The translations under genes and the position numbers were made by a program. Source: Escherichia phage IMM-002. From it: a stretch of DNA of 40,060 bases. The stretch is from sequence record NC_048071.1. One strand, 5' to 3'. Shown one piece after another: positions 1 to 39,820 of this stretch (positions are counted from its first letter, which is position 1; each line of letters starts with the position of its first letter). Under the pieces are notes generated by a model. It searched no databases and had not been told where the DNA came from. It saw nothing but the letters and a program-made list of their open reading frames with translations.

Positions 1-189
1 TCTCACAGTTCAAGAACCTCAAGTCTCCCCATAGGGTCACTCTCAGTCCGACTCAAGGCCCTACCCATAGACCTTCGGTCTAAACCTCAAGTCATTGACC
101 CGAAGTCGCCCCGAAGTCTGGACTGATAGTGCCTATATCTTGTGGTTGGGACGATTGGTCGGGACTATATGTAGTGCCTCTGAGTCTCT
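1..189. repeat. Left direct terminal repeat (DTR), identical to 39872..40060
   Basis: First 189 nt match the last 189 nt of the window base for base (aligned by eye); T7-like genomes carry 160-230 bp DTRs. Confidence 0.9.
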
Positions 190-210
190 ATCTGTATCGA
201 CCTAATGTCA

Positions 211-305
211 ATCACCTACAGTCAACCAGCCTACAGTCTCACTACCTACAGTCATCTACCATCGGTAAAGCCATCACCTACAGCCAATAGACCTACAGTC
301 ACCAG
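211..305. repeat. Array of about 5 short direct repeats (A)CCTACAG(T/C)C next to the left DTR
   Basis: Copies at about 215, 230, 244, 277 and 292; analogous in position to the short repeats flanking the T7 terminal repeat. Confidence 0.6.
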
Positions 306-519
306 ACACTATGTCGACCTTCAGTTTATCAGAGTCCTAAGGTCTTAGACTCATAGGTTATCACATCCGGTCCGTTTAGCAGTCAGAGACCATAGCTGAC
401 TAGGGTTATCGTTGTTGGTGTCTGCCAACCGGACTCTTATTATCCATAGTACAGACTTAAAGTCAATCATCTGTAGTCGTCCTTATATAGTCACTGTACT
501 ACTGTATAAATTACCAGTG

Positions 520-548
520 TTGACAGTGGGTCTAACTTTTGGTTTAAT
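520..548 (+). promoter_or_regulatory. Candidate host sigma70 early promoter (TTGACA-17 nt-TTTAAT)
   Basis: -35 TTGACA 520..525, 17-nt spacer, -10 TTTAAT 543..548; position matches the T7 A1-A3 region. Confidence 0.55.
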
Positions 549-656
549 AGCTTCCGTCAACACGACACGGCAAACACCGGATAGTAGAGACACCGGGTCA
601 CACGGTTAAGTAGACAGCCTGATAAGTCATACGAACAACAGGCAGTGACAAATAGC

Positions 657-686
657 TTGACAAGATGTAGCGACTTAACGTAGTAT
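657..686 (+). promoter_or_regulatory. Candidate host sigma70 early promoter (TTGACA-18 nt-TAGTAT)
   Basis: -35 TTGACA 657..662, -10 TAGTAT 681..686; resembles T7 A2/A3 (TTGACA...TAAGAT). Confidence 0.55.
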
Positions 687-886
687 GCACCACATCGACA
701 CGGCACCAACGGTCGATAAGCAGTACCAGAGGCACCGCCTCGCCGCTCTTTAACAATCTGGATAAACTCTTAATGTGCGCCGATAGTAAGCGATTAACTA
801 CAGGGCCTTGAGTCTACCGCGAGACGGGCTTGACTTGAGCGACTCAGGGTCCTGACTGATAGTCACTAACTTAAAGGATACACATC

Positions 887-1339
887 ATGATTTACACTAA
901 CGAACCAGCCAACGTCTTCTATGTGCTCGTGTCTGCCGCTCGTGCTAACCTGTCTGACACGGTGAACATGGGCCGTCAGTTAGGCCTTAAGGCGCTGCTG
1001 CAAGCCGGACCAGAATACTACGGCGTGCTCGAATGCACCGGGCTTACTGGGTGCTACCGCGAGGAAGGGCAGGAAGTCGCCACTGAAGAGAGGACCTACC
1101 GTGTGCGCTGCGAGTCAAAGGCTCAAGCTATCAACGTTGCACGACTGGCCTGCAATGACTTTGAGCAAGACTGCGTGATGGTCTACAAGTCTCAGACTCA
1201 CACGGCTGGACTGATGTTCTGCAAGGGCTGGGACGGCTACAAGACCACAAGTCTGAACGGGTCATTCCAGCAAGTCGATGAACCAAAGGGCGAATGCTTC
1301 ACGAAAGACGCTGAAGGTCGCTTCTGGGAGGTGGTGTAA
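887..1339 (+). CDS. 0.3: S-adenosylmethionine-degrading enzyme (T3 gp0.3 SAMase-like anti-restriction protein)
   Basis: 150 aa, first gene after the early promoters, AAAGGA RBS; N-terminus MIYTNEPANVFYVLVSA and motifs TGLTGCYRE, VRCESKAQAINVARLACN, VYKSQTHTAGL match my recollection of T3 SAMase; not acidic like T7 Ocr. Confidence 0.65.
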   Translation: MIYTNEPANVFYVLVSAARANLSDTVNMGRQLGLKALLQAGPEYYGVLECTGLTGCYREEGQEVATEERTYRVRCESKAQAINVARLACNDFEQDCVMVYKSQTHTAGLMFCKGWDGYKTTSLNGSFQQVDEPKGECFTKDAEGRFWEVV

Positions 1340-1659
1340 TGATTGCCTATAAAATCTTCCGAATCCGCAAGGATGGAACGCTGGGAGCACTATTCATCAA
1401 TCGTAAGGCGGTCATTGAGGTAGGAGAATGGTACGAGGCAGAGAGCCATCCGACCAAAGGGTTTGCCTATCGTCCGGGCTGGCACTGCACCTTTGAGCAG
1501 AACGCGCCACATCTTAAGCTGGACCTGAAGTCAGGTGAGCGTAGGGCTTGGTTTAAGGTAGAGGTTGAGAACATAACGACCTACGACAGGCCAGAATCTC
1601 AGGGTGGTGCATGGGTATTAGCACAGCGTCTGCGGGTATTAGCACAGGTCTCAGAGTGA
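1339..1659 (+). CDS. Hypothetical early protein, translationally coupled to 0.3 (TAATG overlap)
   Basis: 106-aa ORF, GGAGG RBS 7 nt upstream, no recognised motif. Confidence 0.55.
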   Translation: MIAYKIFRIRKDGTLGALFINRKAVIEVGEWYEAESHPTKGFAYRPGWHCTFEQNAPHLKLDLKSGERRAWFKVEVENITTYDRPESQGGAWVLAQRLRVLAQVSE

Positions 1660-1724
1660 TAAACTACAGGTCATCCACATGGGTGGCCTGACTGATTGTC
1701 ACTTAACCATAAGGAAACAACAAG

Positions 1725-2459
1725 ATGAACGCACACGATAAAGTAATCATGAATAACCTGATGTCTCAGCTTCACGCTATAATCTGTAAGGCCGGTTATA
1801 AGGTGGAGTCGTTGGGGTCGGGCATCGCTGCGCAGGACCGCTGGGGAGCCGTTGAGGTCCTAGCCCGTGAGCATGGCTACAAGCTGTTAGGTCTGGGGCA
1901 CTTCGCCGCTGCCTTTGAGCATGAGGACCTGCCGGGGTATGCCATCAAGGTAGGCTTTAAGAAGGACGACTCAGGCGCTGCGTATGCTGCCTTCTGCCGA
2001 GAGAATGAGGGCATGGCTGGACTACCAGTCATCCATCTGGTCAAGCGCTTCAGCAGGGCTTACATGGTCGCTATGGACAAGTACCGCTCGCTTGAGGACA
2101 TCGGTGGGAACTACTGCCGGGAGGGCAAGACCTACGAGCAGCGAGTCTTAAACGTGTCGTGGCGTGTAGTCAACGCGATAATAGACCAGTGTGAACAGCC
2201 ATCCGAAGCACTGAGCTGGTGGCTTGACCAAGACGCTCGCATAGAGTTTGCACACGTCGAGACTCAGTACATCAAAGACCTTGCGCAGACTGCTAAGAAG
2301 ATTAACAGCTTCTTCTACGGGCTGGCATCGTTCGACACTCATCGCGCTAACGTGATGGTTGACAATAACGGGCGCTTGATAATCACGGACCCGGTGTCTT
2401 GGACTGCAAGCGACCATCAAGATGAGCTGCAAGGCAGGCTGAACGCAATAGCTGAGTGA
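1725..2459 (+). CDS. 0.7: Ser/Thr protein kinase, T7 gp0.7-like, kinase domain only
   Basis: 244 aa; GHFAAAFEHEDLPGYAIKVGFKKDDSGAAYAAFCR and ITDPVS match the T7 gp0.7 kinase core; C-terminal shut-off domain (about 115 aa in T7) absent. Confidence 0.85.
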   Translation: MNAHDKVIMNNLMSQLHAIICKAGYKVESLGSGIAAQDRWGAVEVLAREHGYKLLGLGHFAAAFEHEDLPGYAIKVGFKKDDSGAAYAAFCRENEGMAGLPVIHLVKRFSRAYMVAMDKYRSLEDIGGNYCREGKTYEQRVLNVSWRVVNAIIDQCEQPSEALSWWLDQDARIEFAHVETQYIKDLAQTAKKINSFFYGLASFDTHRANVMVDNNGRLIITDPVSWTASDHQDELQGRLNAIAE

Positions 2460-2525
2460 TAGGCGAGAGACCGCTACATCTAGTGGTCTCAAAGATTATC
2501 TCTCACAACATATAGGCAGGTGTAC

Positions 2526-2720
2526 ATGGGCTGGATACTTCTGGTCATCGGCTACGGGTTAATACTCGCAGTCATCACGAAAGACATCATCAAGGCACGT
2601 AAAGTCTACCGCTTCCAGTATGTGTCTCTGGGTCGCTGGACTGTAAGACAACCAAACGGACGCTTTATGCGTAACCTCGCAAACGTCTGGGACATCGCAA
2701 CCTTAGGGAGCAAACTGTAA
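2526..2720 (+). CDS. Small membrane protein (one N-terminal TM helix), hypothetical
   Basis: ATG 2526 (track ORF opens at GTG 2520); hydrophobic GWILLVIGYGLILAVI then basic tail; TAATG coupling to next gene. Confidence 0.4.
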   Translation: MGWILLVIGYGLILAVITKDIIKARKVYRFQYVSLGRWTVRQPNGRFMRNLANVWDIATLGSKL

Positions 2721-3142
2721 TGTGTAAGACCTGCGCTAAGTGTGGCGAGACCAAGAGTCTTGACCAGTTCGGCAGCAATAAGCGCAACAAGGATGGTCTG
2801 GACTATCGCTGCAAGACTTGCAGAAAGCAGGACGCCCAAGACAGGAGGCAGAAGGCACGAGAGGCCGGGACCTACAAGACGTCAAAGGCTGAAGAGAACC
2901 GAAAGCTGCGCTACGGTCTGGACCTAGAGGAGTACGAGAGCCTCCTACAGCAGCAGGGTGGAGTCTGCGCAATCTGCAAGGGTCAGTGTCCTACCGGGTG
3001 GAGACTGGCGGTGGACCACTCACACGAGACCGGGAAGGTGCGCGGACTGCTCTGCCTACAATGTAATACAGCGCTGGGCCAGTTCAAAGACTCACCGGAA
3101 CTACTGGCAAACGCAATCAAATATCTTCAGGAGAATCAATAA
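2720..3142 (+). CDS. HNH / Endonuclease VII-family nuclease (putative free-standing homing-type endonuclease)
   Basis: 140 aa; N-terminal Cys4 zinc ribbon (CKTCAKCGETK...YRCKTCR) plus GGVCAICKG...LAVDHSHETGKVRGLLCLQCNTALGQF, the Endo VII/HNH signature. Confidence 0.7.
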   Translation: MCKTCAKCGETKSLDQFGSNKRNKDGLDYRCKTCRKQDAQDRRQKAREAGTYKTSKAEENRKLRYGLDLEEYESLLQQQGGVCAICKGQCPTGWRLAVDHSHETGKVRGLLCLQCNTALGQFKDSPELLANAIKYLQENQ

Positions 3143-3393
3143 TGTACACGCACAAGACCTCACGTCACACCGTTCGTCAACAGCAGGAGCGCGACCGGGT
3201 ACTGCAAGCAAGACTCCGGGCCGAGGGCAATAAGGCCGAGCTGATGTGCCTGGCCTACGGTGGACGACCACGCACTGGCGATGGTAAACTTCTGGTCTCA
3301 GGCTGGAGGGCGATAGACCAGCGGTCATACATCAAGCACACGACCAAAGGTGACTTCAGTCATCTCCACGCTAACCCACTGATATGCAAGTAG
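3142..3393 (+). CDS. Hypothetical basic protein, coupled to the HNH gene (TAATG)
   Basis: 83-aa ORF, AGGAG RBS, no recognised domain. Confidence 0.4.
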   Translation: MYTHKTSRHTVRQQQERDRVLQARLRAEGNKAELMCLAYGGRPRTGDGKLLVSGWRAIDQRSYIKHTTKGDFSHLHANPLICK

Positions 3394-3398
3394 TTTGG

Positions 3399-3421
3399 AC
3401 TAAACTATCACTAAAGGACTC
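3399..3421 (+). promoter_or_regulatory. Phage-type promoter variant (TAAACTATCACTAAAGGAC) upstream of the RNAP gene
   Basis: Matches the phage promoter core except A at -2; predicted +1 G at 3416. Confidence 0.5.
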
Positions 3422-3496
3422 AAGGTCGAAAGACTCTAAGTCAGGACTGAAGTGAAAGACTTTAGTGATAAGACAACAGTTATAAGGACTTTAAGT

Positions 3497-6178
3497 ATGA
3501 GCGTCATCTCAATTGACAAGCACGACTTCTCTGATGTGTCGAATGCAATCGAACCATTCAACGTGCTGGCTGACCACTACGGTCAGGACCTAGCAGTAAA
3601 ACAGCTTCAGCTTGAGCATGAGGCGTACACTGAAGGCGAGCGACGTTTCATCAAGAACCTTGAGCGCCAAGCTGAGCGCGGGGAGCTGGCAGACAATCAG
3701 GTCGCCAAGCCACTGATGCAAACTCTGGTCCCGACCATCGCCAAGGCTGTTCGTGAGTGGCACGAAGGCCCGGACGGTAAGTCCTCGACCTCTCGCCCAA
3801 GCGTAGCGTTTACCATGCTGAGCACTGACGAGAAGGCTGTCAAAGACCGCTCTCTGCGAATCTCTGCTGAGTCTGCTGCGGTCATCATACTGAAAGTCAT
3901 CCTCAGCAAGCTGGTCAAGCCTGAGGGAATCCCGATAACGCCGATGGCCTCCGCGATTGGTCGCACACTTGAAGATGAAATCCGCTTCGGTCGCATCCGT
4001 GAGCAGGAGCAGGAGCACTTCAAGAAGACCATAGCTGAGAATCTGAAGAAACGTGCAGGAGCAAGCTACAAGAAAGCCTACATGCAAGCGGTCGAAGCCT
4101 CCATGCTGGAGCAAGGGCAACTGGCTGACGCTTGGGGGACTTGGAGTCCGACCGAGGCGGTACACGTAGGCATCAAGATGCTGGAGCTGGTCATCCAGTC
4201 CTCGCAACTGGTCGAACTGAAGCGCTACGGTGCGGGTAACGCTGCGGCAGACGTCGAGATGGTCCACCTGTCAGACTTCTGGGTCAAGAAGATGTCGCAA
4301 CGTGGCTTCTCACTGGCTGGCATCGCTCCGGTCTACCAACCTTGCGTCGTTCCACCTAAGCCGTGGACCGGGGTCGTGGGTGGTGGGTACTGGGCTAAGG
4401 GCCGAAGACCTCTCCCGCTGATTCGCTTAGGGTCCAAGGCTGCGGTCCAGCGCTACGAAGACGTGTACATGCCTGAAGTCTACGAGGCAGTGAATATCAT
4501 CCAGCAGACACCTTGGAAGGTGAACAAGAAGGTGCTGGACGTGGTGAACATGGTCGAGAAGCTGAACAACACGCCTATCGCTGACATCCCTCAGATGGAA
4601 CCGATGAAGCCTGAGGACTATGCAGGTGAGACCGAGGAAGAACTCAAAGCGTGGAAGAAAGCCGCTGCTGGTATCTATCGACGCGAGAAGGCCCGACAGT
4701 CCCGCCGTTTGTCCCTGAGCTTCATCGTCGGACAGGCGAACAAGTTCTCTCAGTTCAAGGCCATCTGGTTCCCATACAACATGGACTGGCGCGGTCGAGT
4801 CTATGCGGTCCCGATGTTCAACCCTCAGGGTAACGACATGCAGAAGGGCCTGCTGACTCTGGCAGTAGGCAAGCCAATCGGTGCGGACGGCTTCAAGTGG
4901 CTGAAGGTCCACGGTGCAAACTGCGCTGGTGTCGATAAAGTCACCTTCGAGGAGCGCATCAAGTGGGTCGAAGACAACCACGACAACATCCTCGCGGCTG
5001 CTAAGAGTCCGATGGATAGCATTGACTGGTGGGGTCAGTTAGACTCTCCGTTCTGCTTCCTCGCGTTCTGCTTCGAGTATGCTGGAGTCATGCACCACGG
5101 GCTGAGCTACTCCTGCTCACTGCCTATCGCGTTCGATGGGTCCTGCTCTGGGATTCAGCACTTCAGCGCGATGCTTCGTGACCACGTTGGTGGACATGCG
5201 GTCAACCTGACGCCAAGCGGGAAGGTCCAAGACATCTACCGCATTGTGTCAGACCGGGTGGAAGAACAGCTTAAGGAGCTGCTGGTCAACGGAAGTGACA
5301 ACGAGGTGAAGACCTTCGAGGACAAGAAGACAGGCGAGATTACTGAACGTCTGGTCCTTGGAACTCGCGAGCTGGCCCGTCAGTGGCTGACCTACGGGAT
5401 GTCACGCTCGGTCACTAAACGCTCGGTCATGACTCTGGCCTATGGGTCGAAGGAATACGGGTTCGCGGACCAAGTGTTTGAGGACACCGTGATGCCAGCG
5501 ATTGACAGCGGCAAGGGCGCGATGTTCACGGACCCAAGCCAAGCGTCACGCTTCATGGCTAAGATGATTTGGGATGCGGTAAGCGTGACCGTAGTTGCTG
5601 CGGTAGACGCGATGAAGTGGCTGCAAGGCGCTGCTAAACTGCTGGCTGCTGAGGTCAAGGACAAGAAGACAAAAGAGGTCCTTAAGCCTTGCCTCCCGGT
5701 TCACTGGGTAACGCCTGATGGCTTCCCGGTCTGGCAGGAATACCGAAAGAAGGACACCACCCGTCTGAACCTCCTGTTCCTTGGGTCGTTCAACCTGCAA
5801 CCGACAGTCAACAAAGGGTCTAAGAAAGAGCTGGACAAGCACAAGCAGGAGTCTGGTATCAGCCCTAACTTTGTACACTCACAGGACGGCAGTCACCTGA
5901 GGAAGACTGTGGTCCACACCCACCGCAAGTATGGCGTGATGTCCTTCGCAGTGATTCACGATAGCTTCGGGACCATCCCGGCTGACGCTGAGTTCCTGTT
6001 CAAGGGTGTCCGTGAGACGATGGTTGAGACCTACCGCGACAACGATGTGCTGCAAGACTTCTACGAGCAGTTCGCAGACCAGCTTCATGAGAGCCAGCGC
6101 GACAAGTTGCCCGAGCTGCCGAAGCGCGGTAAACTGAACATCGAAGACATTCTGTTATCTGACTTTGCATTCGCCTAA
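3497..6178 (+). CDS. 1: Single-subunit DNA-directed RNA polymerase (T7 gene 1 type)
   Basis: 893 aa from ATG 3497 (AAGGA RBS; track ORF opens at 3452); collinear with T7 RNAP incl. PWTGxxGGGYWA, AIWFPYNMDWRGRVYA, FCFLAFCFEYAGV, SGIQHFSAMLRD, HDSFGT and C-terminal SDFAFA. Confidence 0.97.
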   Translation: MSVISIDKHDFSDVSNAIEPFNVLADHYGQDLAVKQLQLEHEAYTEGERRFIKNLERQAERGELADNQVAKPLMQTLVPTIAKAVREWHEGPDGKSSTSRPSVAFTMLSTDEKAVKDRSLRISAESAAVIILKVILSKLVKPEGIPITPMASAIGRTLEDEIRFGRIREQEQEHFKKTIAENLKKRAGASYKKAYMQAVEASMLEQGQLADAWGTWSPTEAVHVGIKMLELVIQSSQLVELKRYGAGNAAADVEMVHLSDFWVKKMSQRGFSLAGIAPVYQPCVVPPKPWTGVVGGGYWAKGRRPLPLIRLGSKAAVQRYEDVYMPEVYEAVNIIQQTPWKVNKKVLDVVNMVEKLNNTPIADIPQMEPMKPEDYAGETEEELKAWKKAAAGIYRREKARQSRRLSLSFIVGQANKFSQFKAIWFPYNMDWRGRVYAVPMFNPQGNDMQKGLLTLAVGKPIGADGFKWLKVHGANCAGVDKVTFEERIKWVEDNHDNILAAAKSPMDSIDWWGQLDSPFCFLAFCFEYAGVMHHGLSYSCSLPIAFDGSCSGIQHFSAMLRDHVGGHAVNLTPSGKVQDIYRIVSDRVEEQLKELLVNGSDNEVKTFEDKKTGEITERLVLGTRELARQWLTYGMSRSVTKRSVMTLAYGSKEYGFADQVFEDTVMPAIDSGKGAMFTDPSQASRFMAKMIWDAVSVTVVAAVDAMKWLQGAAKLLAAEVKDKKTKEVLKPCLPVHWVTPDGFPVWQEYRKKDTTRLNLLFLGSFNLQPTVNKGSKKELDKHKQESGISPNFVHSQDGSHLRKTVVHTHRKYGVMSFAVIHDSFGTIPADAEFLFKGVRETMVETYRDNDVLQDFYEQFADQLHESQRDKLPELPKRGKLNIEDILLSDFAFA

Positions 6179-6471: not shown

Positions 6472-6929
6472 TGTTCAACCGTAAACTGAAGGCACGTATC
6501 GCAGCACTTGAAGCAACCATACAGCGTCAGGACCACAACCTTGAGCTGGCTAATCGAGAGCAAGCACGGCTGAGGGCCAAACTACAAAAAGCTGAGACCA
6601 AGCGTGAAGTCGAGCCTTTACGTGTGAAGCGCATGGTCGGCCTGAAGTTCAAGGCGCTGTTCAACGGTATCTACCAGCCGACTGAGTTCAAGACCGGGCC
6701 GGGACCATGTGGAAAGACAGTAACGCACTTCACCACGAGCCGAGACGAGCGGACGCTGACCATCCACCAGCACCATACGGACGAGTCCAGCAAGAGCTTT
6801 GAGTATCGGCTGAGCGACATCGACGGTCGCATCCAGTATGACTACGAGCTGGTGCAGGTTTACGGTGAGGAGGCAGAGCGGGAACGTATGGTCCAAGCCC
6901 TCCGCAACAGACCGCGCTTCATAGCCTAA
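6472..6929 (+). CDS. Hypothetical protein with N-terminal coiled-coil
   Basis: ATG 6472 preferred (GTG 6402 in track overlaps the microprotein); KLKARIAALEATIQRQDHNLELANREQARLRAKLQKAE heptad-like region. Confidence 0.5.
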
Positions 6930-6947
6930 ACTATCACTATAGGATTA
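6925..6947 (+). promoter_or_regulatory. Phage RNAP promoter (phi1.1-equivalent)
   Basis: CTAAACTATCACTATAGGATT, +1 about 6942. Confidence 0.8.
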
Positions 6948-8551: not shown

Positions 8552-8562
8552 CTGAACGTCAA

Positions 8563-8597
8563 CCCAGTGGTCTTCGCGGACTGCTGGGTTTCTTTGT
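8563..8597 (+). terminator. Rho-independent terminator, early terminator TE-equivalent
   Basis: GC-rich hairpin CCCAGTGGTC-TTCGCG-GACTGCTGGG followed by TTTCTTTGTG, directly after ligase as in T7. Confidence 0.7.
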
Positions 8598-8618: not shown

Positions 8619-8641
8619 ACTTAACTATCACTGTAGGACCA
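8619..8641 (+). promoter_or_regulatory. Phage RNAP promoter
   Basis: TTAACTATCACTGTAGGACC, +1 about 8636. Confidence 0.75.
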
Positions 8642-9383: not shown

Positions 9384-9560
9384 ATGACCATCTATAAGGG
9401 CATCTTCGGGTCTCTGTACGCAGTGAACCAACACGGAGTCGTCTGCGTTAAGCCGGACGGTGGCGAGTGGTGCGCATCACATTACAGTGTCGAGGGATTC
9501 CAAGACGCTATTGATAAAGGCTATGTGACGGAGGTGGTCGATGACCAAGGAGTCAACTGA
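9384..9560 (+). CDS. Hypothetical small protein (gp1.8 position)
   Basis: 58-aa ORF, GGGAGAGG RBS, overlaps gene 2 start. Confidence 0.4.
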
Positions 9561-9711
9561 GAAGAAGTATATCGTGGAACTTGAAGGGCGCGTTCAGTCC
9601 TTTGACGTCCCGGTCTACGCTAAGTCTCTGGACGAGGCGACCCTGAAGGCTCAGGAATATGAAGATGCTGGTTTCGTGGTAGGCCGCATCCGACCTGAGC
9701 TGCACGACTAA
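9541..9711 (+). CDS. 2: Gp2-like inhibitor of host RNA polymerase
   Basis: 56 aa (below track cut-off); [32 protein letters not shown] matches T7 Gp2 [33 protein letters not shown]. Confidence 0.75.
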
Positions 9712-9729
9712 ACTATCACTTTAGGAACA
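9707..9729 (+). promoter_or_regulatory. Phage RNAP promoter (phi2.5-equivalent)
   Basis: CTAAACTATCACTTTAGGAAC, +1 about 9724. Confidence 0.75.
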
Positions 9730-10910: not shown

Positions 10911-11356
10911 CTAAGCATTTAACGTGTGTTGATTTACCATTTGGTGCTCAGTACAAATTCCACCCTGACGTCATTGAGGCGCACCCAGGACTGAGCACTG
11001 ACACGTATGAGCGTCGGGATAATCACTCGGTTGTTGTAACGGGTCCATTCAAGGGGAACACTGTACAATGGTACGGACATGAGAAGACTCGCATTGTCGA
11101 AGTTGGAAAACCTCAAGTCCTGCCAGCCTCAAGCGTACCGCCTGTGACAGTGAAACGTGAAGTCCTGACCATCGACAAGATTGGTGTGGGTCAGACGTTC
11201 ATCGTTCACGGTAAGCCTGACGAAGTGTACGTGAAGATTAGCAACTCGCACGTCTTCAACCATAAGCGTCTCCAGATGCACACGACTGTAGCAGAGCGCT
11301 TCCAGTCACACCTGAATCTGGTCGTTGTTGAGCTGGTGGTGTACAATGGCAAGTAA
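10907..11356 (+). CDS. Hypothetical protein inserted between endonuclease I and lysozyme
   Basis: 149-aa ORF, ATGA coupling, AAAGGAG RBS; AT-rich codons at 5' end; no T7 counterpart at this position. Confidence 0.55.
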   Translation: MTKHLTCVDLPFGAQYKFHPDVIEAHPGLSTDTYERRDNHSVVVTGPFKGNTVQWYGHEKTRIVEVGKPQVLPASSVPPVTVKREVLTIDKIGVGQTFIVHGKPDEVYVKISNSHVFNHKRLQMHTTVAERFQSHLNLVVVELVVYNGK

Positions 11357-11804
11357 GGTACAGTTCAAACCACGTACAGTCACTGACGCAATCTTCGTCC
11401 ACTGTAGTGCTACACAACCGTCTCAGGACATCGGGGTAGACACTATCCGCATGTGGCACAAGCAGCAGGGCTGGCTTGACGTAGGCTATCACTTCGTCAT
11501 CAAACGCGATGGCACCGTGGAGTCTGGACGTCCGGTCGATGTCGTAGGGTCACACGTTAAGGATTGGAACTCCCGGTCCGTAGGCGTCTGCCTTGTAGGT
11601 GGAATCGACGCTAAGGGCAAGTTTGAAGCTAACTTCACTCCTGCTCAGATGAGCGCCCTACGCAACAAGCTGGCTGAACTGAAGGTCCTGTACCCTCAGG
11701 CAGACATCAAGGCCCATCACGATGTGGCACCAAAGGCTTGCCCAAGTTTCGACTTGCAGCGCTGGCTGAACACTAACGAAATGGTCACTTCCGACCGAGG
11801 CTAA
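11346..11804 (+). CDS. 3.5: N-acetylmuramoyl-L-alanine amidase (T7 lysozyme type)
   Basis: 152 aa from ATG 11346; VQFKPR, DAIFVHCSAT, WLDVGYHFVIKRDGTVESGR, VGVCLVGGID, KGKFEANFTPAQM, HHDVAPKACPSFDL, VTSDRG nearly identical to T7 gp3.5. Confidence 0.96.
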   Translation: MASKVQFKPRTVTDAIFVHCSATQPSQDIGVDTIRMWHKQQGWLDVGYHFVIKRDGTVESGRPVDVVGSHVKDWNSRSVGVCLVGGIDAKGKFEANFTPAQMSALRNKLAELKVLYPQADIKAHHDVAPKACPSFDLQRWLNTNEMVTSDRG

Positions 11805-11818
11805 CAAGGAGTAATAAC

Positions 11819-12031
11819 ATGATTAAGTTTATCGAATTTCTGGGTCGTCTGGTTGTGCGTGGTTATTCTCGTGCTGCGAGTGTGGAACGAAAAGTCGCAT
11901 CTGCTGCGGCTAAAGGTGCGGAAGCGGCTGCTGCGGAAGCGGATAGTCTGCGCATCAAGTCTCTGGACGCTGGCCTCCGTGCGCGTGGTCTGGACAAGAA
12001 GGCCGAGCAACTGAAAGGCTTCTTCAGCTAA
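11819..12031 (+). CDS. Hypothetical Ala-rich protein
   Basis: 70-aa ORF with AAGGAG RBS. Confidence 0.5.
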   Translation: MIKFIEFLGRLVVRGYSRAASVERKVASAAAKGAEAAAAEADSLRIKSLDAGLRARGLDKKAEQLKGFFS

Positions 12032-12049
12032 ACTATCACCTTAGGGATG
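12027..12049 (+). promoter_or_regulatory. Phage RNAP promoter
   Basis: TAAACTATCACCTTAGGGATG, +1 about 12044. Confidence 0.7.
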
Positions 12050-13854: not shown

Positions 13855-14019
13855 GTGTTTAAGAAACTTAAAGCCCGATACCACACGTTCATGTACAAGT
13901 GGTGGAACGAGGAGGCCAACTGTCTGTCCCGAATCCTTGGAGACCAGCGGTTTGACTCTAAGGCGTGGAAGCGAGCGAACCAGAAGTTCATGTATCACTT
14001 CCTGCGTATCGACTACTAA
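13855..14019 (+). CDS. Hypothetical small protein (gene 4.x position)
   Basis: GTG 13855 with GGAGGA 9 nt upstream (track ORF opens at GTG 13819); 54 aa. Confidence 0.35.
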   Translation: MFKKLKARYHTFMYKWWNEEANCLSRILGDQRFDSKAWKRANQKFMYHFLRIDY

Positions 14020-14037
14020 GCTATCACTGTAGGATAG
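14015..14037 (+). promoter_or_regulatory. Phage RNAP promoter (phi4.7-equivalent)
   Basis: CTAAGCTATCACTGTAGGATAG, +1 about 14032. Confidence 0.7.
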
Positions 14038-18006: not shown

Positions 18007-18029
18007 ACTAAACTATCACTATAGGGACT
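18007..18029 (+). promoter_or_regulatory. Phage RNAP promoter (phi6.5-equivalent)
   Basis: CTAAACTATCACTATAGGGAC, +1 about 18024. Confidence 0.85.
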
Positions 18030-18091
18030 TTAGGACCTAAGTTATGACTATAAGATAGACTTAAGTTAATACTTTAAGAGGAGACTTTAAG

Positions 18092-19262: not shown

Positions 19263-20831
19263 ATGGCTGAACGTCAAGGCTTCGCTGCTGAAGGAGCCAA
19301 AGCGGTTTATGACCGATTAAAGAACGGTCGCCAGCCGTATGAGACACGAGCTCAGAACTGTGCGGCTGTCACCATCCCGTCCCTGTTCCCGAAAGAGTCC
19401 GACAACTCCTCAACAGAGTACACGACTCCGTGGCAAGCTGTAGGCGCTCGCTGTCTGAATAACCTAGCGGCTAAGCTAATGCTTGCCCTGTTCCCTCAGG
19501 CACCGTGGATGAGACTCACCGTCTCTGAGTATGAGGCCAAAACCTTGAGTCAAGACACTGAGGCTGCTGCCCGTGTTGACGAGGGGCTGGCTATGGTCGA
19601 GCGTGTGCTGATGGCCTATATGGAGACCAATAGTTTCCGTGTGCCACTGTTCGAGGCCCTGAAGCAACTTATCGTCTCAGGTAACTGTCTGCTCTACATC
19701 CCGCCTCCAGAACAGGGTCAGTATAGCCCAATGCGAATGTACCGTCTGGTCTCCTATGTGGTCCAGCGCGATGCGTTCGGTAACGTGCTACAGATTGTCA
19801 CCCTCGACAGGATTGCGTTTAGTGCTCTGCCGGAAGACGTTCAGTCTCAGCTCAACGCTGATGACTATGAGCCGGACACCGAGTTGGACGTCTACACGCA
19901 CATCTACCGGGAAGGCGATGAGTACCTGCGTTATGAGGAAGTGGAAGGCGTAGAGGTTAACGGGACCGATGGTTCCTATCCACTTGATGCCTGCCCGTAC
20001 ATCCCGGTACGCATGGTCAGACTGGATGGTGAAGACTATGGTCGTTCCTACGCTGAAGAGTATCTTGGGGACCTGAACTCTCTGGAGACAATTACCGAGG
20101 CTATCACCAAGATGGCTAAGGTCGCCGCTAAGGTGGTGGGTCTGGTCAATCCGAACGGTATCACCCAGCCTCGTCGCCTGAACAAGGCAGCTACTGGTGA
20201 GTTTGTGGCCGGACGCATTGAGGACATCAACTTCCTGCAATTGACGAAAGGTCAGGACTTTACGATTGCCAAGTCGGTGGCTGACGCTATCGAGCAACGT
20301 TTAGGCTGGGCCTTCCTGCTTAACTCTGCTGTCCAGCGTAATGCTGAGCGAGTGACTGCTGAAGAGATTCGTTATGTTGCTGGTGAGCTTGAGGCGACTC
20401 TAGGCGGTGTGTACTCCGTGCAGTCTCAGGAGATGCAGCTACCTCTGGTCCGTGTGCTACTGAACCAGCTTCAGTCCGCTGGCATGATTCCTGACCTTCC
20501 GAAAGAAGCGGTAGAGCCTACGGTCTCCACTGGTCTGGAAGCTCTGGGTCGTGGTCAGGATTTGGAGAAGCTGACTCAGGCGGTGAACATGATGACTGGA
20601 CTTCAGCCTCTGGCTCAGGACCCGGACATCAACTTGCCGACCCTTAAGCTGCGACTCCTGAACGCTCTGGGTATCGACACCGCTGGTCTGCTCCTGACGC
20701 AAGACGAGAAGCTGAAACGCATGGCTGAGCAGTCGTCTCAACAGGCAGTCGTCCAAGGTGCTGGTGCTGCTGGTGCTAACATGGGTGCTGCGGTCGGTCA
20801 GGGTGCTGGTGAGGACATGGCTCAGGCTTAA
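19263..20831 (+). CDS. 8: Head-to-tail connector (portal) protein
   Basis: 522 aa, size and position of T7 gp8, first gene of the structural block. Confidence 0.9.
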   Translation: MAERQGFAAEGAKAVYDRLKNGRQPYETRAQNCAAVTIPSLFPKESDNSSTEYTTPWQAVGARCLNNLAAKLMLALFPQAPWMRLTVSEYEAKTLSQDTEAAARVDEGLAMVERVLMAYMETNSFRVPLFEALKQLIVSGNCLLYIPPPEQGQYSPMRMYRLVSYVVQRDAFGNVLQIVTLDRIAFSALPEDVQSQLNADDYEPDTELDVYTHIYREGDEYLRYEEVEGVEVNGTDGSYPLDACPYIPVRMVRLDGEDYGRSYAEEYLGDLNSLETITEAITKMAKVAAKVVGLVNPNGITQPRRLNKAATGEFVAGRIEDINFLQLTKGQDFTIAKSVADAIEQRLGWAFLLNSAVQRNAERVTAEEIRYVAGELEATLGGVYSVQSQEMQLPLVRVLLNQLQSAGMIPDLPKEAVEPTVSTGLEALGRGQDLEKLTQAVNMMTGLQPLAQDPDINLPTLKLRLLNALGIDTAGLLLTQDEKLKRMAEQSSQQAVVQGAGAAGANMGAAVGQGAGEDMAQA

Positions 20832-20848
20832 CTATCACTATAGGAACA
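20826..20848 (+). promoter_or_regulatory. Phage RNAP promoter (phi9-equivalent)
   Basis: GCTTAACTATCACTATAGGAAC, +1 about 20843; followed by hairpin AACAGG...CCTGTT. Confidence 0.8.
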
Positions 20849-21781: not shown

Positions 21782-21804
21782 ACTAAACTATCACTATAGG
21801 GAGA
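21782..21804 (+). promoter_or_regulatory. Phage RNAP promoter (phi10-equivalent), best match to consensus
   Basis: CTAAACTATCACTATAGGGAGA, +1 about 21799. Confidence 0.9.
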
Positions 21805-23220: not shown

Positions 23221-23225
23221 TTGAA

Positions 23226-23265
23226 ACCCCTTGGGTGCCTTCGGGTGCTTGAGGGGTTTTTCGTT
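23226..23265 (+). terminator. Rho-independent terminator (Tphi-equivalent)
   Basis: AACCCCTTGGGTGCCTTCGGGTGCTTGAGGGGTTTTTCG closely resembles T7 Tphi (AACCCCTTGGGGCCTCTAAACGGGTCTTGAGGGGTTTTTTG). Confidence 0.85.
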
Positions 23266-26237: not shown

Positions 26238-26260
26238 CCTTAACTATCACTATAGGGACT
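26238..26260 (+). promoter_or_regulatory. Phage RNAP promoter (phi13-equivalent)
   Basis: CCTTAACTATCACTATAGGGAC, +1 about 26255; leader shares TACTTTAAGAGGAGACTTTA with the 18007 promoter leader. Confidence 0.85.
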
Positions 26261-32600: not shown

Positions 32601-33532
32601 ACATCGTGGAACATAGTCTGACTGGCAGTAAGCGTAAGTTCGATGACCGTTGGTTGAAGACTGCTGGTATCTCCGCTGACCAGTGGAAGGGCATTAAGTC
32701 CCTCATCCGTGAGTCGGTGACTCGTGGTCCAGACGGGAAGTACACCATCAAGGACAAGAAGGCGTTCAGTCAGGACCCAAGGGCTATGGACCTCTGGCGT
32801 ATGGGTGACACCATCGCTGATGAGACCCTGCTTCGTCCGCACAAGCTGAGCAACATGGACGCCAAGGCTTATGGTCCGCTGGCGAAGACTGTCTTGCAGT
32901 TTAAGAACTTCGTCATCAAGTCCATCAACGGTCGAACCATGCGTACCTTCTACAACGCCACCAAGAACAACCGAGCTATGGATGCTGCACTATCAACGGT
33001 TATGTCTATGGGTCTGGCTGGGATGTACTACATGGCTCAGGCGCACATCAAGGCTTACGCTATGCAGGACGGTCGTGACCGTGAGTACCTGAAGCAAGCC
33101 TTGAACCCGACGATGATTGGTTATGCTGCTCTATCCCGTAGCTCCCACTTGGGTGGACCTCTTGGGGTCGCCAACATTCTGGGTGGTATCGCTGGGTATG
33201 AGGACACTAAGTTACTCCGCTCGTCTATCCTTCCGCGCTCACCTACCGAGAAGCCTGAACGTGCCATTACCTATGGTGCTGCGAAGAGTGACCCGGTGAT
33301 GAATGTGGTCGGCAACTTCCTTGAGCAGGTCCCGGCTTTCGGTTATGCTGCTAACGTTGGCGCTTCGGCTTACAACTTGGCTGGCTACCTGAAGTCCGAC
33401 ACCCGTGTGAACGAACGAGACTACATGACCGGGATGTATAACACCTTCCGTGAGCTGGTCCCGAACGACCCTATCACCCAGAAGCTGCTGTTAGGCACCT
33501 TTGAGGAGCAAGGTATTCACATCAAGAACTAA
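29642..33532 (+). CDS. 16: Internal virion protein C/D-like (ejectosome core), with non-T7 N-terminal domain
   Basis: 1296 aa; from about residue 200 collinear with T7 gp16 (TWFGF..AAEAE, TRWN, GAGVDPL, RLEARETARN, RSPTGMQSGASGK, MENPAMFG, KGTYVPHVY, SRPEVKARVDE, DKAYGISH, NFLEARNLFDSD, YNRRVNGDIAIMAG, LRPHK, NNRAMDAALS); first about 130 aa unrelated to the T7 SLT domain. Confidence 0.93.
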   Translation: MATRGIRNNNIGNIRVSKDQWEGATGDDGSFVTFDTPDSGVRALAKNLMSYGRQGYDSIEKIITRWAPPSENDTQSYIQSVASATGIPATQSLDLTDPDVLASLSEAIGYHETGSRYDKSVYQTGVGRALGNGITPKSPPVSANVFDALTEGLKAKPKVALGENLPGVTGLNIEGQEPEAPNESFGEMFYKSTGETLDQRADRSTWFGFGGAAEAEVNNSMVGVAIRAGQTEDSLDVIGDVFNPTRWNNHKWSREELDQIRNAGVLPQYYGVITGGSPQNLTELINLALENQKLDAEKAKAGTGAQLAAGVIGAGVDPLTYVPIAGQVGKGGKLINKMFTVAAQSGALAGASELARTSVAGGDAHVAEAIMGGALFGGGMTAIGDAIGKALGKSTNEFAGPATRLEARETARNVDGQDLSRLPIREGEETFSHQGVKFADVPNEPGSVRLEDGSILIGENPLNPKTRQVFDEVIEPERAAAGVNLGGLTEIGLKLLRSENPEIRGLAADLVRSPTGMQSGASGKIGTTASDVFERLRAVDHRFYNDIDDAVTQALKDPYFQTNFNRDTGAFRQDIYQRVALAIEDGSGNLKAELTPGELKVYGLLKNQFDAKREMMENPAMFGRVDAQSIFPGSRFKGTYVPHVYSNQMKQLFINELGSPEALQEAIKKSWLTSYASRPEVKARVDEALLEANPNLKPEELAAAVDKYANDKAYGISHTDLFERSSVMEENINGLVGLENNNFLEARNLFDSDMSIILPNGQPFNVNSLREWDMDKIVPAYNRRVNGDIAIMAGTGKTTKEMKDTVETMMNRAGDDGKLKGEVATLRDTLKILTGRARRDGADDAAFSTVMRTMTDLSFFAKNAYMGVQNLTEIGGMLARGNVRAMLHGIPMFRDLAFRNKKMGASEIKDLHNVVFGKELDDSIRPSKQDVIDRLRAYSDLSKPVATALGSAKYYTGELAVRSPFTKVLNGTTNYLLDAGRQGFLSDIVEHSLTGSKRKFDDRWLKTAGISADQWKGIKSLIRESVTRGPDGKYTIKDKKAFSQDPRAMDLWRMGDTIADETLLRPHKLSNMDAKAYGPLAKTVLQFKNFVIKSINGRTMRTFYNATKNNRAMDAALSTVMSMGLAGMYYMAQAHIKAYAMQDGRDREYLKQALNPTMIGYAALSRSSHLGGPLGVANILGGIAGYEDTKLLRSSILPRSPTEKPERAITYGAAKSDPVMNVVGNFLEQVPAFGYAANVGASAYNLAGYLKSDTRVNERDYMTGMYNTFRELVPNDPITQKLLLGTFEEQGIHIKN

Positions 33533-33550
33533 ACTATCACTATAGGAACG
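33528..33550 (+). promoter_or_regulatory. Phage RNAP promoter (phi17-equivalent)
   Basis: AACTAAACTATCACTATAGGAACG, +1 about 33545; followed by GGAG-gcttcggt-CTCC hairpin. Confidence 0.85.
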
Positions 33551-39305: not shown

Positions 39306-39328
39306 ACTTAACTATCACTATAGGGAAG
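39306..39328 (+). promoter_or_regulatory. Phage RNAP promoter (phiOR-equivalent)
   Basis: GGACTTAACTATCACTATAGGGAAG, +1 about 39323. Confidence 0.8.
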
Positions 39329-39693: not shown

Positions 39694-39820
39694 GACCTAA
39701 GGTCAGTTCATAGCTGACGCTACTCTACTGACCTTAGCTACTGAAGTCAAGACCTACAGTCAACACTATAGAAGCTATGGTCTCTCAGGGTCGTTAGGAC
39801 CTACGGTCTGACCTACGGAT
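39694..39820. repeat. Related short repeats GACCTA(A/C)(A/G)GTC next to the right DTR
   Basis: gacctaaggtcag, tgaccttagcta, gacctacagtcaac, gacctacggtctgacctacgg. Confidence 0.55.

What the first reader, a model, noticed from the sequence alone, without database searches (positions are those of the whole stretch)
3399..3421. Phage-type promoter directly upstream of the phage RNA polymerase gene
A close match to the phage promoter core (TAAACTATCACTAAAGGAC, A at -2) lies about 80 nt before the RNAP start. In T7 gene 1 is transcribed only by host RNAP. If active, this would create positive autoregulation of RNAP synthesis.
Basis: seen in the sequence. Interest (0 to 1): 0.45.

Follow-up and report, generated by a model that had tools for sequence, protein, structure and literature searches.

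The report
Phage promoter before its own polymerase gene
The sequence is a real, conserved promoter for the phage's own RNA polymerase, placed 81 bases before that polymerase's gene, but the same element is already annotated in a close relative and similar ones in other T7-like phages, so it is an ordinary known feature.

Summary
Observation confirmed. Window 3399-3421 (ACTAAACTATCACTAAAGGACTC) spans -17..+6 of a phage-type promoter. Predicted start is G3416, 81 nt before the RNA polymerase ATG at 3497.

The window is a complete Kayfunavirus (K1F-like) genome with 12 such sites, all on the + strand. A matrix built from the other 11 scores this site at 25.6 bits. Their leave-one-out range is 25-36 bits, and the best background hit scores 16. 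The only core deviation is A instead of T at -2.

A promoter sits at this position in all 33 related genomes examined. In GenBank, 31 records carry the A(-2) allele and 159 the T(-2) allele. Where the polymerase specificity loop is T3-like (D748/R756), this promoter carries ACCC instead of ACTA at -12..-9.

The T-to-A change at -2 leaves T7 promoter activity near wild type in published data, and T3 uses A there natively.

The ortholog is annotated as "promoter phi" in EcoDS1. gh-1 has an annotated phi1 before gene 1, LUZ100 has a mapped one with a feedback model, and phiA318 a predicted one. T7, T3, K11 and BA14 have phiOL upstream of gene 1, so "host polymerase only" is oversimplified.

Positive autoregulation is plausible but untested. 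Verdict: real, already known, low interest.

The parts
3399..3421 (+). Phage RNA polymerase promoter ('phi1'), -17..+6, predicted start G3416. Class II-like start GGAC. A at -2.
   Evidence: Ortholog annotated as 'promoter phi' in EcoDS1 at 2244-2266, 21/23 identical.
3416..3496 (+). 81-nt leader of the phi1 transcript. AT-rich (62%; peak 68% per 60 nt). Shine-Dalgarno AAGGA at 3484-3488. No terminator-like site.
   Evidence: Leader length is 74-82 nt in 33 relatives.
3497..6178 (+). Gene 1, single-subunit RNA polymerase, 893 aa. Specificity loop RLNLLFLGSFNLQ (N748, N756, Q758 in T7 numbering).
   Evidence: 93% identity to EcoDS1 gp1, 64% to T7.
3142..3393 (+). Upstream gene, a gp0.38 homolog. 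Its stop codon ends 5 nt before the promoter's -17.
   Evidence: 71% identity to EcoDS1 gp0.38.
520..556 (+). Host (sigma-70) early promoter, ortholog of the first EcoDS1-annotated host RNAP promoter.
657..692 (+). Host (sigma-70) early promoter: TTGACA, 18-nt spacer, TAGTAT.
8561..8590 (+). Early terminator TE for host polymerase, just after the ligase gene. 29/30 identical to the EcoDS1-annotated TE.
23224..23259 (+). Tphi, the first terminator expected to act on the phage polymerase downstream of phi1. Identical to the EcoDS1-annotated terminator.
6925..6947 (+). Next phage promoter (phi1.1 equivalent), +1 at 6942.
8619..8641 (+). Phage promoter (phi1.6 equivalent), +1 at 8636.
9707..9729 (+). 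Phage promoter (phi2.5 equivalent), +1 at 9724.
12027..12049 (+). Phage promoter before gene 4, +1 at 12044.
14015..14037 (+). Phage promoter, +1 at 14032. No counterpart is annotated in EcoDS1.
18007..18029 (+). Phage promoter (phi6.5 equivalent), +1 at 18024.
20826..20848 (+). Phage promoter (phi9 equivalent), +1 at 20843.
21782..21804 (+). Phage promoter (phi10 equivalent), +1 at 21799, starts GGGAGA.
26238..26260 (+). Phage promoter (phi13 equivalent), +1 at 26255.
33528..33550 (+). Phage promoter (phi17 equivalent), +1 at 33545.
39306..39328 (+). Phage promoter phiOR, +1 at 39323.
3406..3470 (+). Predicted 65-nt irregular RNA hairpin, closed by a perfect 11-nt inverted repeat (3406-3416 and 3460-3470). 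The 5' arm is promoter positions -10..+1, so only read-through transcripts from upstream could form it.
   Evidence: Not supported by the alignment folds or by one other context.
1725..2459 (+). gp0.7-like protein kinase (host transcription shut-off function in T7).
9559..9699 (+). gp2 homolog (host RNA polymerase inhibitor).
11346..11801 (+). gp3.5 homolog (lysozyme; in T7 an inhibitor of the phage polymerase).

Best explanation
The site is a functional class II-type promoter (phi1) for the phage's own single-subunit RNA polymerase. It is conserved across Kayfunavirus.

Proposed sequence of events:
1. Early in infection the host polymerase, starting at the left-end promoters (520-556 and 657-692), transcribes through the early genes into gene 1 (inferred from layout and T7 biology).
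2. Once some phage polymerase exists, it initiates at G3416. It transcribes an 81-nt leader, gene 1 and the genes downstream. It passes the host terminator TE at 8561-8590, which in T7 stops only the host polymerase (inferred from T7 knowledge), and continues as far as Tphi at 23224.
3. This keeps gene 1 mRNA synthesis going after the kinase and gp2 have shut off the host polymerase, which makes a positive feedback loop.
4. The loop is probably limited, as for T7 class II promoters, by the gp3.5 lysozyme homolog and by the weaker GGAC start (inferred).

This genome has no phiOL, so phi1 is the first phage promoter on the entering DNA and may also take over roles proposed for phiOL. The A at -2 is a derived allele of the Dev2/Pisces clade and is expected to be nearly neutral for activity.
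For: Family membership: the site is identical to the consensus of the 11 other promoters at -17..+3 except at -2. It scores 25.6 bits against 16 bits for the best background position.

Conservation: a promoter lies 74-82 nt before the gene 1 ATG in 33 of 33 related genomes, giving 18 distinct sequences. This holds even in Kc166A, where the upstream gene is different. In GenBank, 31 records carry the A(-2) allele and 159 the K1F-type T(-2) allele.

Co-variation: four genomes whose polymerase has a T3-like loop (D748/R756) carry ACCC at -12..-9 in this promoter and in their other promoters. Genomes with N748/N756 carry ACTA, in otherwise similar flanks. These residues contact -11/-10 and -9 in T7 (PMC5937735; PMC11880802). 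The K1F loop with the K1F -12..-7 bases is an experimentally active, orthogonal pair (PMC3458549).

The -2 position: the T7 variant TAATACGACTCACTAAAGG gave RNA/DNA ratios of 161 and 138, against 142-188 for wild type (PMC5937735, S2 file). T3 promoters naturally have A at -2.

Expert annotation: EcoDS1 2244-2266 is 'promoter phi'. gh-1 'phi1' lies 97 nt before gene 1.

Layout: no terminator-like site between 3416 and 3497. Kinase, gp2 and gp3.5 homologs are all present.

Precedent: a TSS-mapped phi1 upstream of the LUZ100 polymerase gene, with a feedback model (PMC10134795).
Against: There are no transcription data for this or any Kayfunavirus in the sources searched. The site is in the lowest tier of the 12 by score, and it is the only one with A at -2. 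The activity data for -2A come from T7 polymerase, which is only 64% identical. The co-variation could partly reflect physical linkage of the promoter to gene 1, or homogenisation among promoter copies, rather than selection on gene 1 expression specifically. Whether phi1 transcripts add meaningfully to polymerase levels is unknown. T7 does well with host-driven gene 1 expression only, plus weak phiOL.
Confidence: 0.78

Rival explanations
1. The site is an active promoter, but it is selected for a job other than feeding back on polymerase synthesis. Candidates are priming DNA replication (as with T7 phi1.1A/B plus an AT-rich region, or the secondary origin at phiOL), letting the fast phage polymerase take over genome internalisation earlier, or boosting class II genes. 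Transcription of gene 1 would then be a by-product.
For: The genome lacks phiOL (none is annotated in EcoDS1, or in gh-1). T7, T3, K11 and BA14 have phiOL but no promoter directly before gene 1, which suggests substitution of one for the other. The leader is among the most AT-rich 60-nt stretches in the genome (99.8th percentile), as expected for a T7-type origin.
Against: AT-rich leaders follow most of the 12 promoters, so this does not discriminate. The constant 74-82 nt spacing to the gene 1 ATG and the conserved Shine-Dalgarno context tie the promoter to gene 1 as a unit. Whatever the selected role, transcripts from 3416 must cross gene 1.
Confidence: 0.15
2. In this clade the promoter is a decayed relic. 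The T-to-A change at the otherwise invariant -2 disables it, and gene 1 is expressed from host promoters only.
For: All 11 other promoters in the genome have T at -2. The matrix penalises the site by about 4.5 bits.
Against: The same substitution is near wild type in T7 and is the native base in T3. The allele is fixed, with every other core position intact, in 31 GenBank records from phages of several host genera. Other promoters in these genomes vary at -4 and -3 as well.
Confidence: 0.05
3. The conservation reflects mainly an RNA element. This would be an R1-like RNase III processing hairpin in the host-made early transcript, located where T7 and T3 have R1. The promoter-like sequence would be merely one arm of that hairpin.
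For: There is a perfect 11-nt inverted repeat at 3406-3416 and 3460-3470. The 65-nt hairpin folds at -19.2 kcal/mol with z = -2.7, and the stem probability is 0.6-0.97 in three sequence contexts. The K1F, GW1-type and Kc166A versions also fold into hairpins anchored by TCACT/AGTGA, with z from -2.3 to -3.6. Annotated T3 RNase III sites give z of about -4. T3 and gh-1 annotate R1 in this intergenic gap.
Against: RNAalifold finds no shared structure and no compensatory pairs. A different context gives another minimum-energy fold with z = -0.98. Natural variants break predicted pairs. L022 lacks the AGTGA arm yet keeps the promoter. An RNA role cannot explain why -12..-9 tracks the polymerase specificity loop. 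The segment boundaries for the z-scores were chosen after seeing the fold.
Confidence: 0.02

Closest known systems
Escherichia phage EcoDS1 'promoter phi' at 2244-2266 (GenBank EU734172)
   Same: It is the ortholog. It has the same position, between gp0.38 and gene 1, about 70-80 nt before the ATG. It is 21/23 identical (ACTTAACTATCACTATAGGACTC). Neither genome has phiOL.
   Different: The window has A instead of T at -14 and at -2. Its leader is a different allele (81 nt against 75 nt) containing an 11-nt inverted repeat.
Pseudomonas phage gh-1 'phi1' putative promoter at 939-961 (GenBank AF493143)
   Same: A consensus-quality cognate promoter sits about 100 nt upstream of gene 1, and no phiOL is annotated.
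   Different: It belongs to a different genus and has a different promoter specificity. It is annotated as overlapping a putative host terminator (Te1) and a host promoter (A4). gh-1 has almost no early genes before gene 1.
Pseudomonas phage LUZ100 phi1 (PMC10134795)
   Same: A phage-specific promoter directly upstream of the polymerase gene. Its transcription start was mapped by ONT-cappable-seq, and a positive feedback loop was explicitly proposed.
   Different: It is a distant relative with a lysogeny module. The proposed loop is gated by a MarR-like repressor, and there is no sign of that here.
Vibrio phage phiA318 promoter phi-A8 (PMC4099482)
   Same: A predicted cognate promoter upstream of the kinase and polymerase genes, interpreted as autoregulation.
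   Different: It is an SP6/K1E-like phage, the evidence is prediction only, and the promoter precedes two genes.
phiOL of T7, T3, K11 and BA14
   Same: A phage promoter upstream of gene 1 with no annotated phage-polymerase terminator in between, so the phage polymerase can in principle transcribe its own gene.
   Different: phiOL lies 2.6-2.8 kb further left, before the host promoters, and has been linked to replication and packaging (own knowledge). The window has no such site; the best hit left of 3416 scores 13 bits.
Engineered T7 'autogene' and ectopic gene 1 constructs (Dubendorff & Studier 1991; Endy et al. 2000; Springman et al. 2005; own knowledge, not checked here)
   Same: The polymerase gene is placed behind its own promoter, which gives positive feedback.
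   Different: These are artificial constructs. Here the arrangement is natural and conserved.

Membership tests
T7-group (Studiervirinae) phage RNA polymerase promoter | A roughly 23-bp element (-17..+6) matching the consensus of the same genome's promoter set. | tested here: met
   22 of 23... more precisely, identical to the 11-site consensus at -17..+3 except at -2. Scores 25.6 bits against 16 bits for the best background position.
T7-group (Studiervirinae) phage RNA polymerase promoter | The specificity region (-12..-8) matches the cognate polymerase specificity loop. | tested here: met
   ACTAT goes with N748/N756. Relatives with D748/R756 have ACCCT at the same site. The contacts are described in PMC5937735 and PMC11880802.
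T7-group (Studiervirinae) phage RNA polymerase promoter | Co-directional with the genes, located in an intergenic gap or at a gene end. | tested here: met
   On the + strand, 5 nt after the stop of the upstream ORF and 81 nt before gene 1.
T7-group (Studiervirinae) phage RNA polymerase promoter | An A/T-rich melting region at -4..-1 and a G start (GG). | tested here: met
   The site reads TAAA then GG. The same -2A change is near wild type in T7 and native in T3.
T7-group (Studiervirinae) phage RNA polymerase promoter | Initiation by the phage polymerase at +1, in vitro or in vivo. | not testable with these tools
   No transcript data for Kayfunavirus were found.
Self-transcribed polymerase gene (positive feedback, as in LUZ100 phi1 or the T7 autogene) | A cognate promoter upstream of the polymerase gene with no intervening terminator. 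| tested here: met
   No terminator-like site in 3416-3497 and no ATCTGTT pause signal on the + strand.
Self-transcribed polymerase gene (positive feedback, as in LUZ100 phi1 or the T7 autogene) | Polymerase synthesis depends on its own activity. | not testable with these tools
   This needs a promoter knock-out or a rifampicin time course.
phiOL-type left-end promoter | Located between the terminal repeat and the host early promoters. | tested here: not met
   The site is at 3416, 2.7 kb to the right of the host promoters at 520-692. There is no promoter-like site in 1-3398.
T7-type RNase III processing site (R1) | A stable irregular hairpin of about 50-65 nt directly upstream of gene 1, conserved among relatives. 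| tested here: inconclusive
   Single-sequence folds give z from -2.3 to -3.6. There is no consensus structure and no covariation, and the fold depends on context.

The most novel reading that the evidence does not exclude
In the Dev2/Pisces clade, the A at -2 together with changes in the leader created a perfect 11-bp stem between promoter positions -10..+1 and 3460-3470. Gene 1 mRNAs made by the host polymerase (read-through, stem present, possibly cut by RNase III like T7 R1) would then differ in 5' structure, processing or translation from those started at G3416 by the phage polymerase (stem absent). The promoter would double as a switch between two differently handled polymerase mRNAs.
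Probability: 0.1. Interest if true: 0.45.

Novelty: already known. Interest (0 to 1): 0.2.

Why it matters
If active, the promoter makes polymerase synthesis self-sustaining after the host polymerase is shut off. This is a different wiring of the early-to-middle switch from the T7 textbook model. It matters for modelling and engineering K1F-type phages and for using K1F polymerase/promoter pairs in synthetic circuits.

The arrangement has already been recorded: EcoDS1 and gh-1 in their GenBank annotations, LUZ100 by transcript mapping, and phiA318 by prediction. This window therefore adds another instance plus some comparative support. That support consists of genus-wide conservation, co-variation with the polymerase specificity loop, and an apparent either/or pattern between phiOL and phi1.

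Tried and rejected
- Rfam scan of the whole window at gathering thresholds: no match.
- Consensus RNA structure of the promoter and leader across relatives: no shared structure and no compensatory pairs. A first single-sequence fold of 3385-3500 was unremarkable (z = -0.98).
- Search for a host 'promoter C' analogue or a terminator in the gap before gene 1: none at the scan's thresholds.
- Search for the T7 class II pause/termination signal ATCTGTT on the + strand: none.
- AT-richness of the leader as an origin signature: it does not discriminate, because most promoters are followed by AT-rich leaders.
- Locus L036, from the pattern scan of viral contigs, is a chance match in unrelated GC-rich DNA.
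- The K1F genome paper (Scholl & Merril 2005) and Chen & Schneider 2005 are not held in the library. I could not check whether they list this promoter.
- Papers on Kayfunavirus isolates mention promoter repeats but do not discuss the one before gene 1. Sparklingdew lists a copy at the 3' end of the gene preceding the polymerase gene.
- The SP6 record carries no promoter annotation.

Full report
**What the window is.** The 40,060-bp window is a complete genome of a K1F-like T7-family phage (genus Kayfunavirus). It has 189-bp direct terminal repeats. It is identical to IMG/VR contig UViG_2974592685. Its closest GenBank relatives are Escherichia phage Pisces (97%) and the Dev2 group.

The layout is T7-like:
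- Host-type early promoters at 520-556 and 657-692.
- A gp0.7-like kinase at 1725-2459.
- Gene 1 (RNA polymerase) at 3497-6178.
- The early terminator TE at 8561-8590 and Tphi at 23224-23259.
- A gp2 homolog at 9559-9699 and a gp3.5 homolog at 11346-11801.

**The observation.** The reported string is present at 3401-3419. The interval 3399-3421 is exactly -17..+6 of a T7-type promoter with +1 at G3416. The polymerase gene starts at the ATG at 3497, with AAGGA 8 nt upstream. It does not start at the GTG at 3452 listed mechanically. The start site is therefore 81 nt before the gene.

The genome holds 12 such sites, all on the + strand, with +1 at 3416, 6942, 8636, 9724, 12044, 14032, 18024, 20843, 21799, 26255, 33545 and 39323. 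About 0.01 would be expected by chance.

A weight matrix from the other 11 sites scores the 3416 site at 25.6 bits. That is inside the leave-one-out range of the others (24.95-35.9 bits) and well above the best non-promoter position (16.0 bits). Its only departure from the consensus in -17..+3 is A for T at -2. Its GGAC start resembles the early and middle promoters (GGA...) rather than the late ones (GGGA...).

**Comparative evidence.** I examined 33 related genomes (IMG/VR loci and GenBank records), which give 18 distinct promoter-plus-leader sequences. Every one has a cognate promoter 74-82 nt before the gene 1 ATG. This includes Kosakonia phage Kc166A, where the upstream gene is different.
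- Eight genomes, the Dev2/Pisces clade including this window, have A at -2. The other 25, including the more distant types, have T. The A is therefore a derived allele.
- In GenBank, 31 records contain an exact 28-mer spanning the A(-2) promoter and 159 contain the K1F-type T(-2) version.
- 218 records cover at least 80% of the 117-nt stretch taken for this search (3380-3496: the end of the upstream gene, the promoter and the leader).

**Co-variation with the polymerase.** This is the most informative comparison. Four genomes (L021, L022, L026 and Cronobacter phage vB_CtuP_B1) encode a polymerase whose specificity loop is T3-like, RLDLMFLGTFRLQ (D748, R756). Their promoters, including the one before gene 1, read AAACCCTCACT. 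The window, K1F and EcoDS1 have RLNL[L/M]FLGSFNLQ (N748, N756), and their promoters read AACTATCACT.

In T7, residue 748 contacts -11/-10 and residue 756 contacts -9 (PMC5937735; PMC11880802). A T7 polymerase carrying the K1F loop is active and orthogonal on a promoter carrying the K1F -12..-7 bases (PMC3458549). The site before gene 1 has thus tracked a change of polymerase specificity, which a relic would not do.

One caveat applies. The promoter is physically linked to gene 1, and promoter copies may homogenise by recombination. The co-variation therefore proves membership in the working promoter family, not selection on gene 1 expression as such.

**The -2 position.** In a published in vitro library, the T7 promoter with T-to-A at -2 gave RNA/DNA ratios of 161 and 138. 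Wild-type barcodes gave 142-188 (PMC5937735, S2 file). T3 promoters naturally read CACTAAAGGGA or CACTAACGGGA. In this family the -4..-2 positions also vary among accepted promoters: -3 is A, G or T, and -4 is T or C. I therefore expect the A(-2) allele to be active. This is an inference from a homolog that is 64% identical.

**Mechanism.** Shown here: the sequence, its family membership, its conservation, its co-variation with the polymerase, the absence of any terminator-like site between +1 and the ATG, and the presence of the T7-type shut-off and feedback genes.

Inferred from established T7 biology:
- The host polymerase makes the first gene 1 mRNA from the left-end promoters.
- The phage polymerase then starts at G3416 and transcribes its own gene and the class II region, reading through TE.
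- The kinase and gp2 silence the host polymerase, so late gene 1 transcription would depend on phi1. This is a positive loop.
- The loop is probably damped by the lysozyme homolog, which in T7 preferentially inhibits class II promoters.

I put the probability that the site is an active promoter at about 0.85. The probability that it contributes appreciably to polymerase levels is about 0.6.

**What is already known.**
- The EcoDS1 GenBank record annotates the orthologous 23-mer (2244-2266, 21/23 identical) as 'promoter phi'. It annotates three host promoters but no phiOL.
- The gh-1 record annotates 'phi1; putative gh-1 RNAP promoter' at 939-961, 97 nt before gene 1, and again no phiOL.
- LUZ100 has a TSS-mapped phi1 directly upstream of its polymerase gene, with an explicit positive-feedback model (PMC10134795).
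- For phiA318, a predicted promoter before the kinase and polymerase genes was read as autoregulation (PMC4099482).
- A 2026 Kayfunavirus paper lists a promoter repeat at the end of the gene preceding the polymerase gene, without comment (PMC13298934).
- T7, T3, K11 and BA14 carry phiOL to the left of the early promoters and have nothing directly before gene 1. T7 and T3 have the minor host promoter C there, and T3 also has the annotated RNase III site R1.

The arrangement found here is a known alternative, not a novelty. A small new observation is the apparent either/or pattern: phiOL in Teseptimavirus, Teetrevirus, Przondovirus and Berlinvirus, against phi1 in Kayfunavirus and gh-1. It rests on only a handful of annotated genomes.

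**A secondary feature.** Promoter positions -10..+1 (3406-3416) are perfectly complementary to 3460-3470. As RNA, 3402-3474 folds into a 65-nt irregular hairpin of -19.2 kcal/mol with z = -2.7. The stem has probability 0.6-0.97 in three wider contexts.

The K1F, GW1-type and Kc166A versions also fold into hairpins anchored by TCACT/AGTGA, with z from -2.3 to -3.6. Annotated T3 RNase III sites give z of about -4. In the window's clade, the A at -2 and a one-base deletion in the leader turn an interrupted stem into a perfect one. Only read-through transcripts from upstream could form this stem, so it could be the counterpart of the R1 site.

Against this reading:
- RNAalifold finds no consensus structure and no compensatory changes.
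- One context gives a different fold.
- Natural variants break predicted pairs, and L022 lacks the 3' arm.
- I chose the segment boundaries after seeing the fold.

I treat this as a weak lead only.

**Verdict.** The functional reading is plausible but untested. The element is already annotated in a congener, and analogous ones are described elsewhere. Interest is low.

Noticed in passing
window 3406-3416 and 3460-3470: A perfect 11-nt inverted repeat pairs the promoter core (-10..+1) with the leader. It closes a predicted 65-nt hairpin (-19.2 kcal/mol, z = -2.7). This may be an R1-like RNase III site for read-through early transcripts. The alignment folds do not support it.
   Followed up: partly
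window 3428-3438, 3454-3464, 3484-3493 (also 3413-3425): The leader contains three to four copies of an RBS-like motif (G)AAAGACTYTA / AAGGACTTTA, spaced 26-29 nt apart. The last copy is the real Shine-Dalgarno context of gene 1. AAGAC motifs are invariant across relatives. Their function is unknown.
   Followed up: no
window 1-3398: There is no phiOL-type phage promoter at the left end; the best hit is 13 bits, inside the terminal repeat. EcoDS1 and gh-1 also lack an annotated phiOL but have a promoter before gene 1. T7, T3, K11 and BA14 show the opposite pattern.
   Followed up: partly
L021, L022, L026, L056 (GW1 / vB_CtuP_B1 type): Within an otherwise Kayfunavirus backbone (polymerase 87-93% identical overall), these phages have a T3-like specificity loop (D748/R756), a different AT-rich recognition loop, and T3-like promoter cores (AAACCCTCACT). 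The N-terminal 300 aa are only 78-81% identical, which suggests a mosaic polymerase gene.
   Followed up: partly
window 207-307: A short array of CCTACAGTC-type 15-bp repeats lies just inside the left terminal repeat. One further copy sits near the right end at 39753-39762. These match the terminal tandem repeats described for phage Sparklingdew. ATCTGTA at 191-197, just past the end of the terminal repeat, resembles the T7 concatemer-junction pause signal.
   Followed up: no
window 14015-14037 and 18036-18058: There is an extra promoter at +1 14032 (G at -12, G at -3) with no counterpart annotated in EcoDS1. A weak second promoter-like site (16 bits) lies 29 nt downstream of the phi6.5-equivalent promoter.
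   Followed up: no
window 3452-3499: The mechanical ORF for the polymerase starts at GTG 3452. The real start is ATG 3497, as in all annotated orthologs. Reading the ORF from 3452 would wrongly shorten the leader to 36 nt.
   Followed up: yes
L057 (Escherichia phage vB_Eco_1RS, PV615263): The polymerase gene of this GenBank record is annotated as six fragments. This probably reflects frameshift sequencing errors rather than biology.
   Followed up: no
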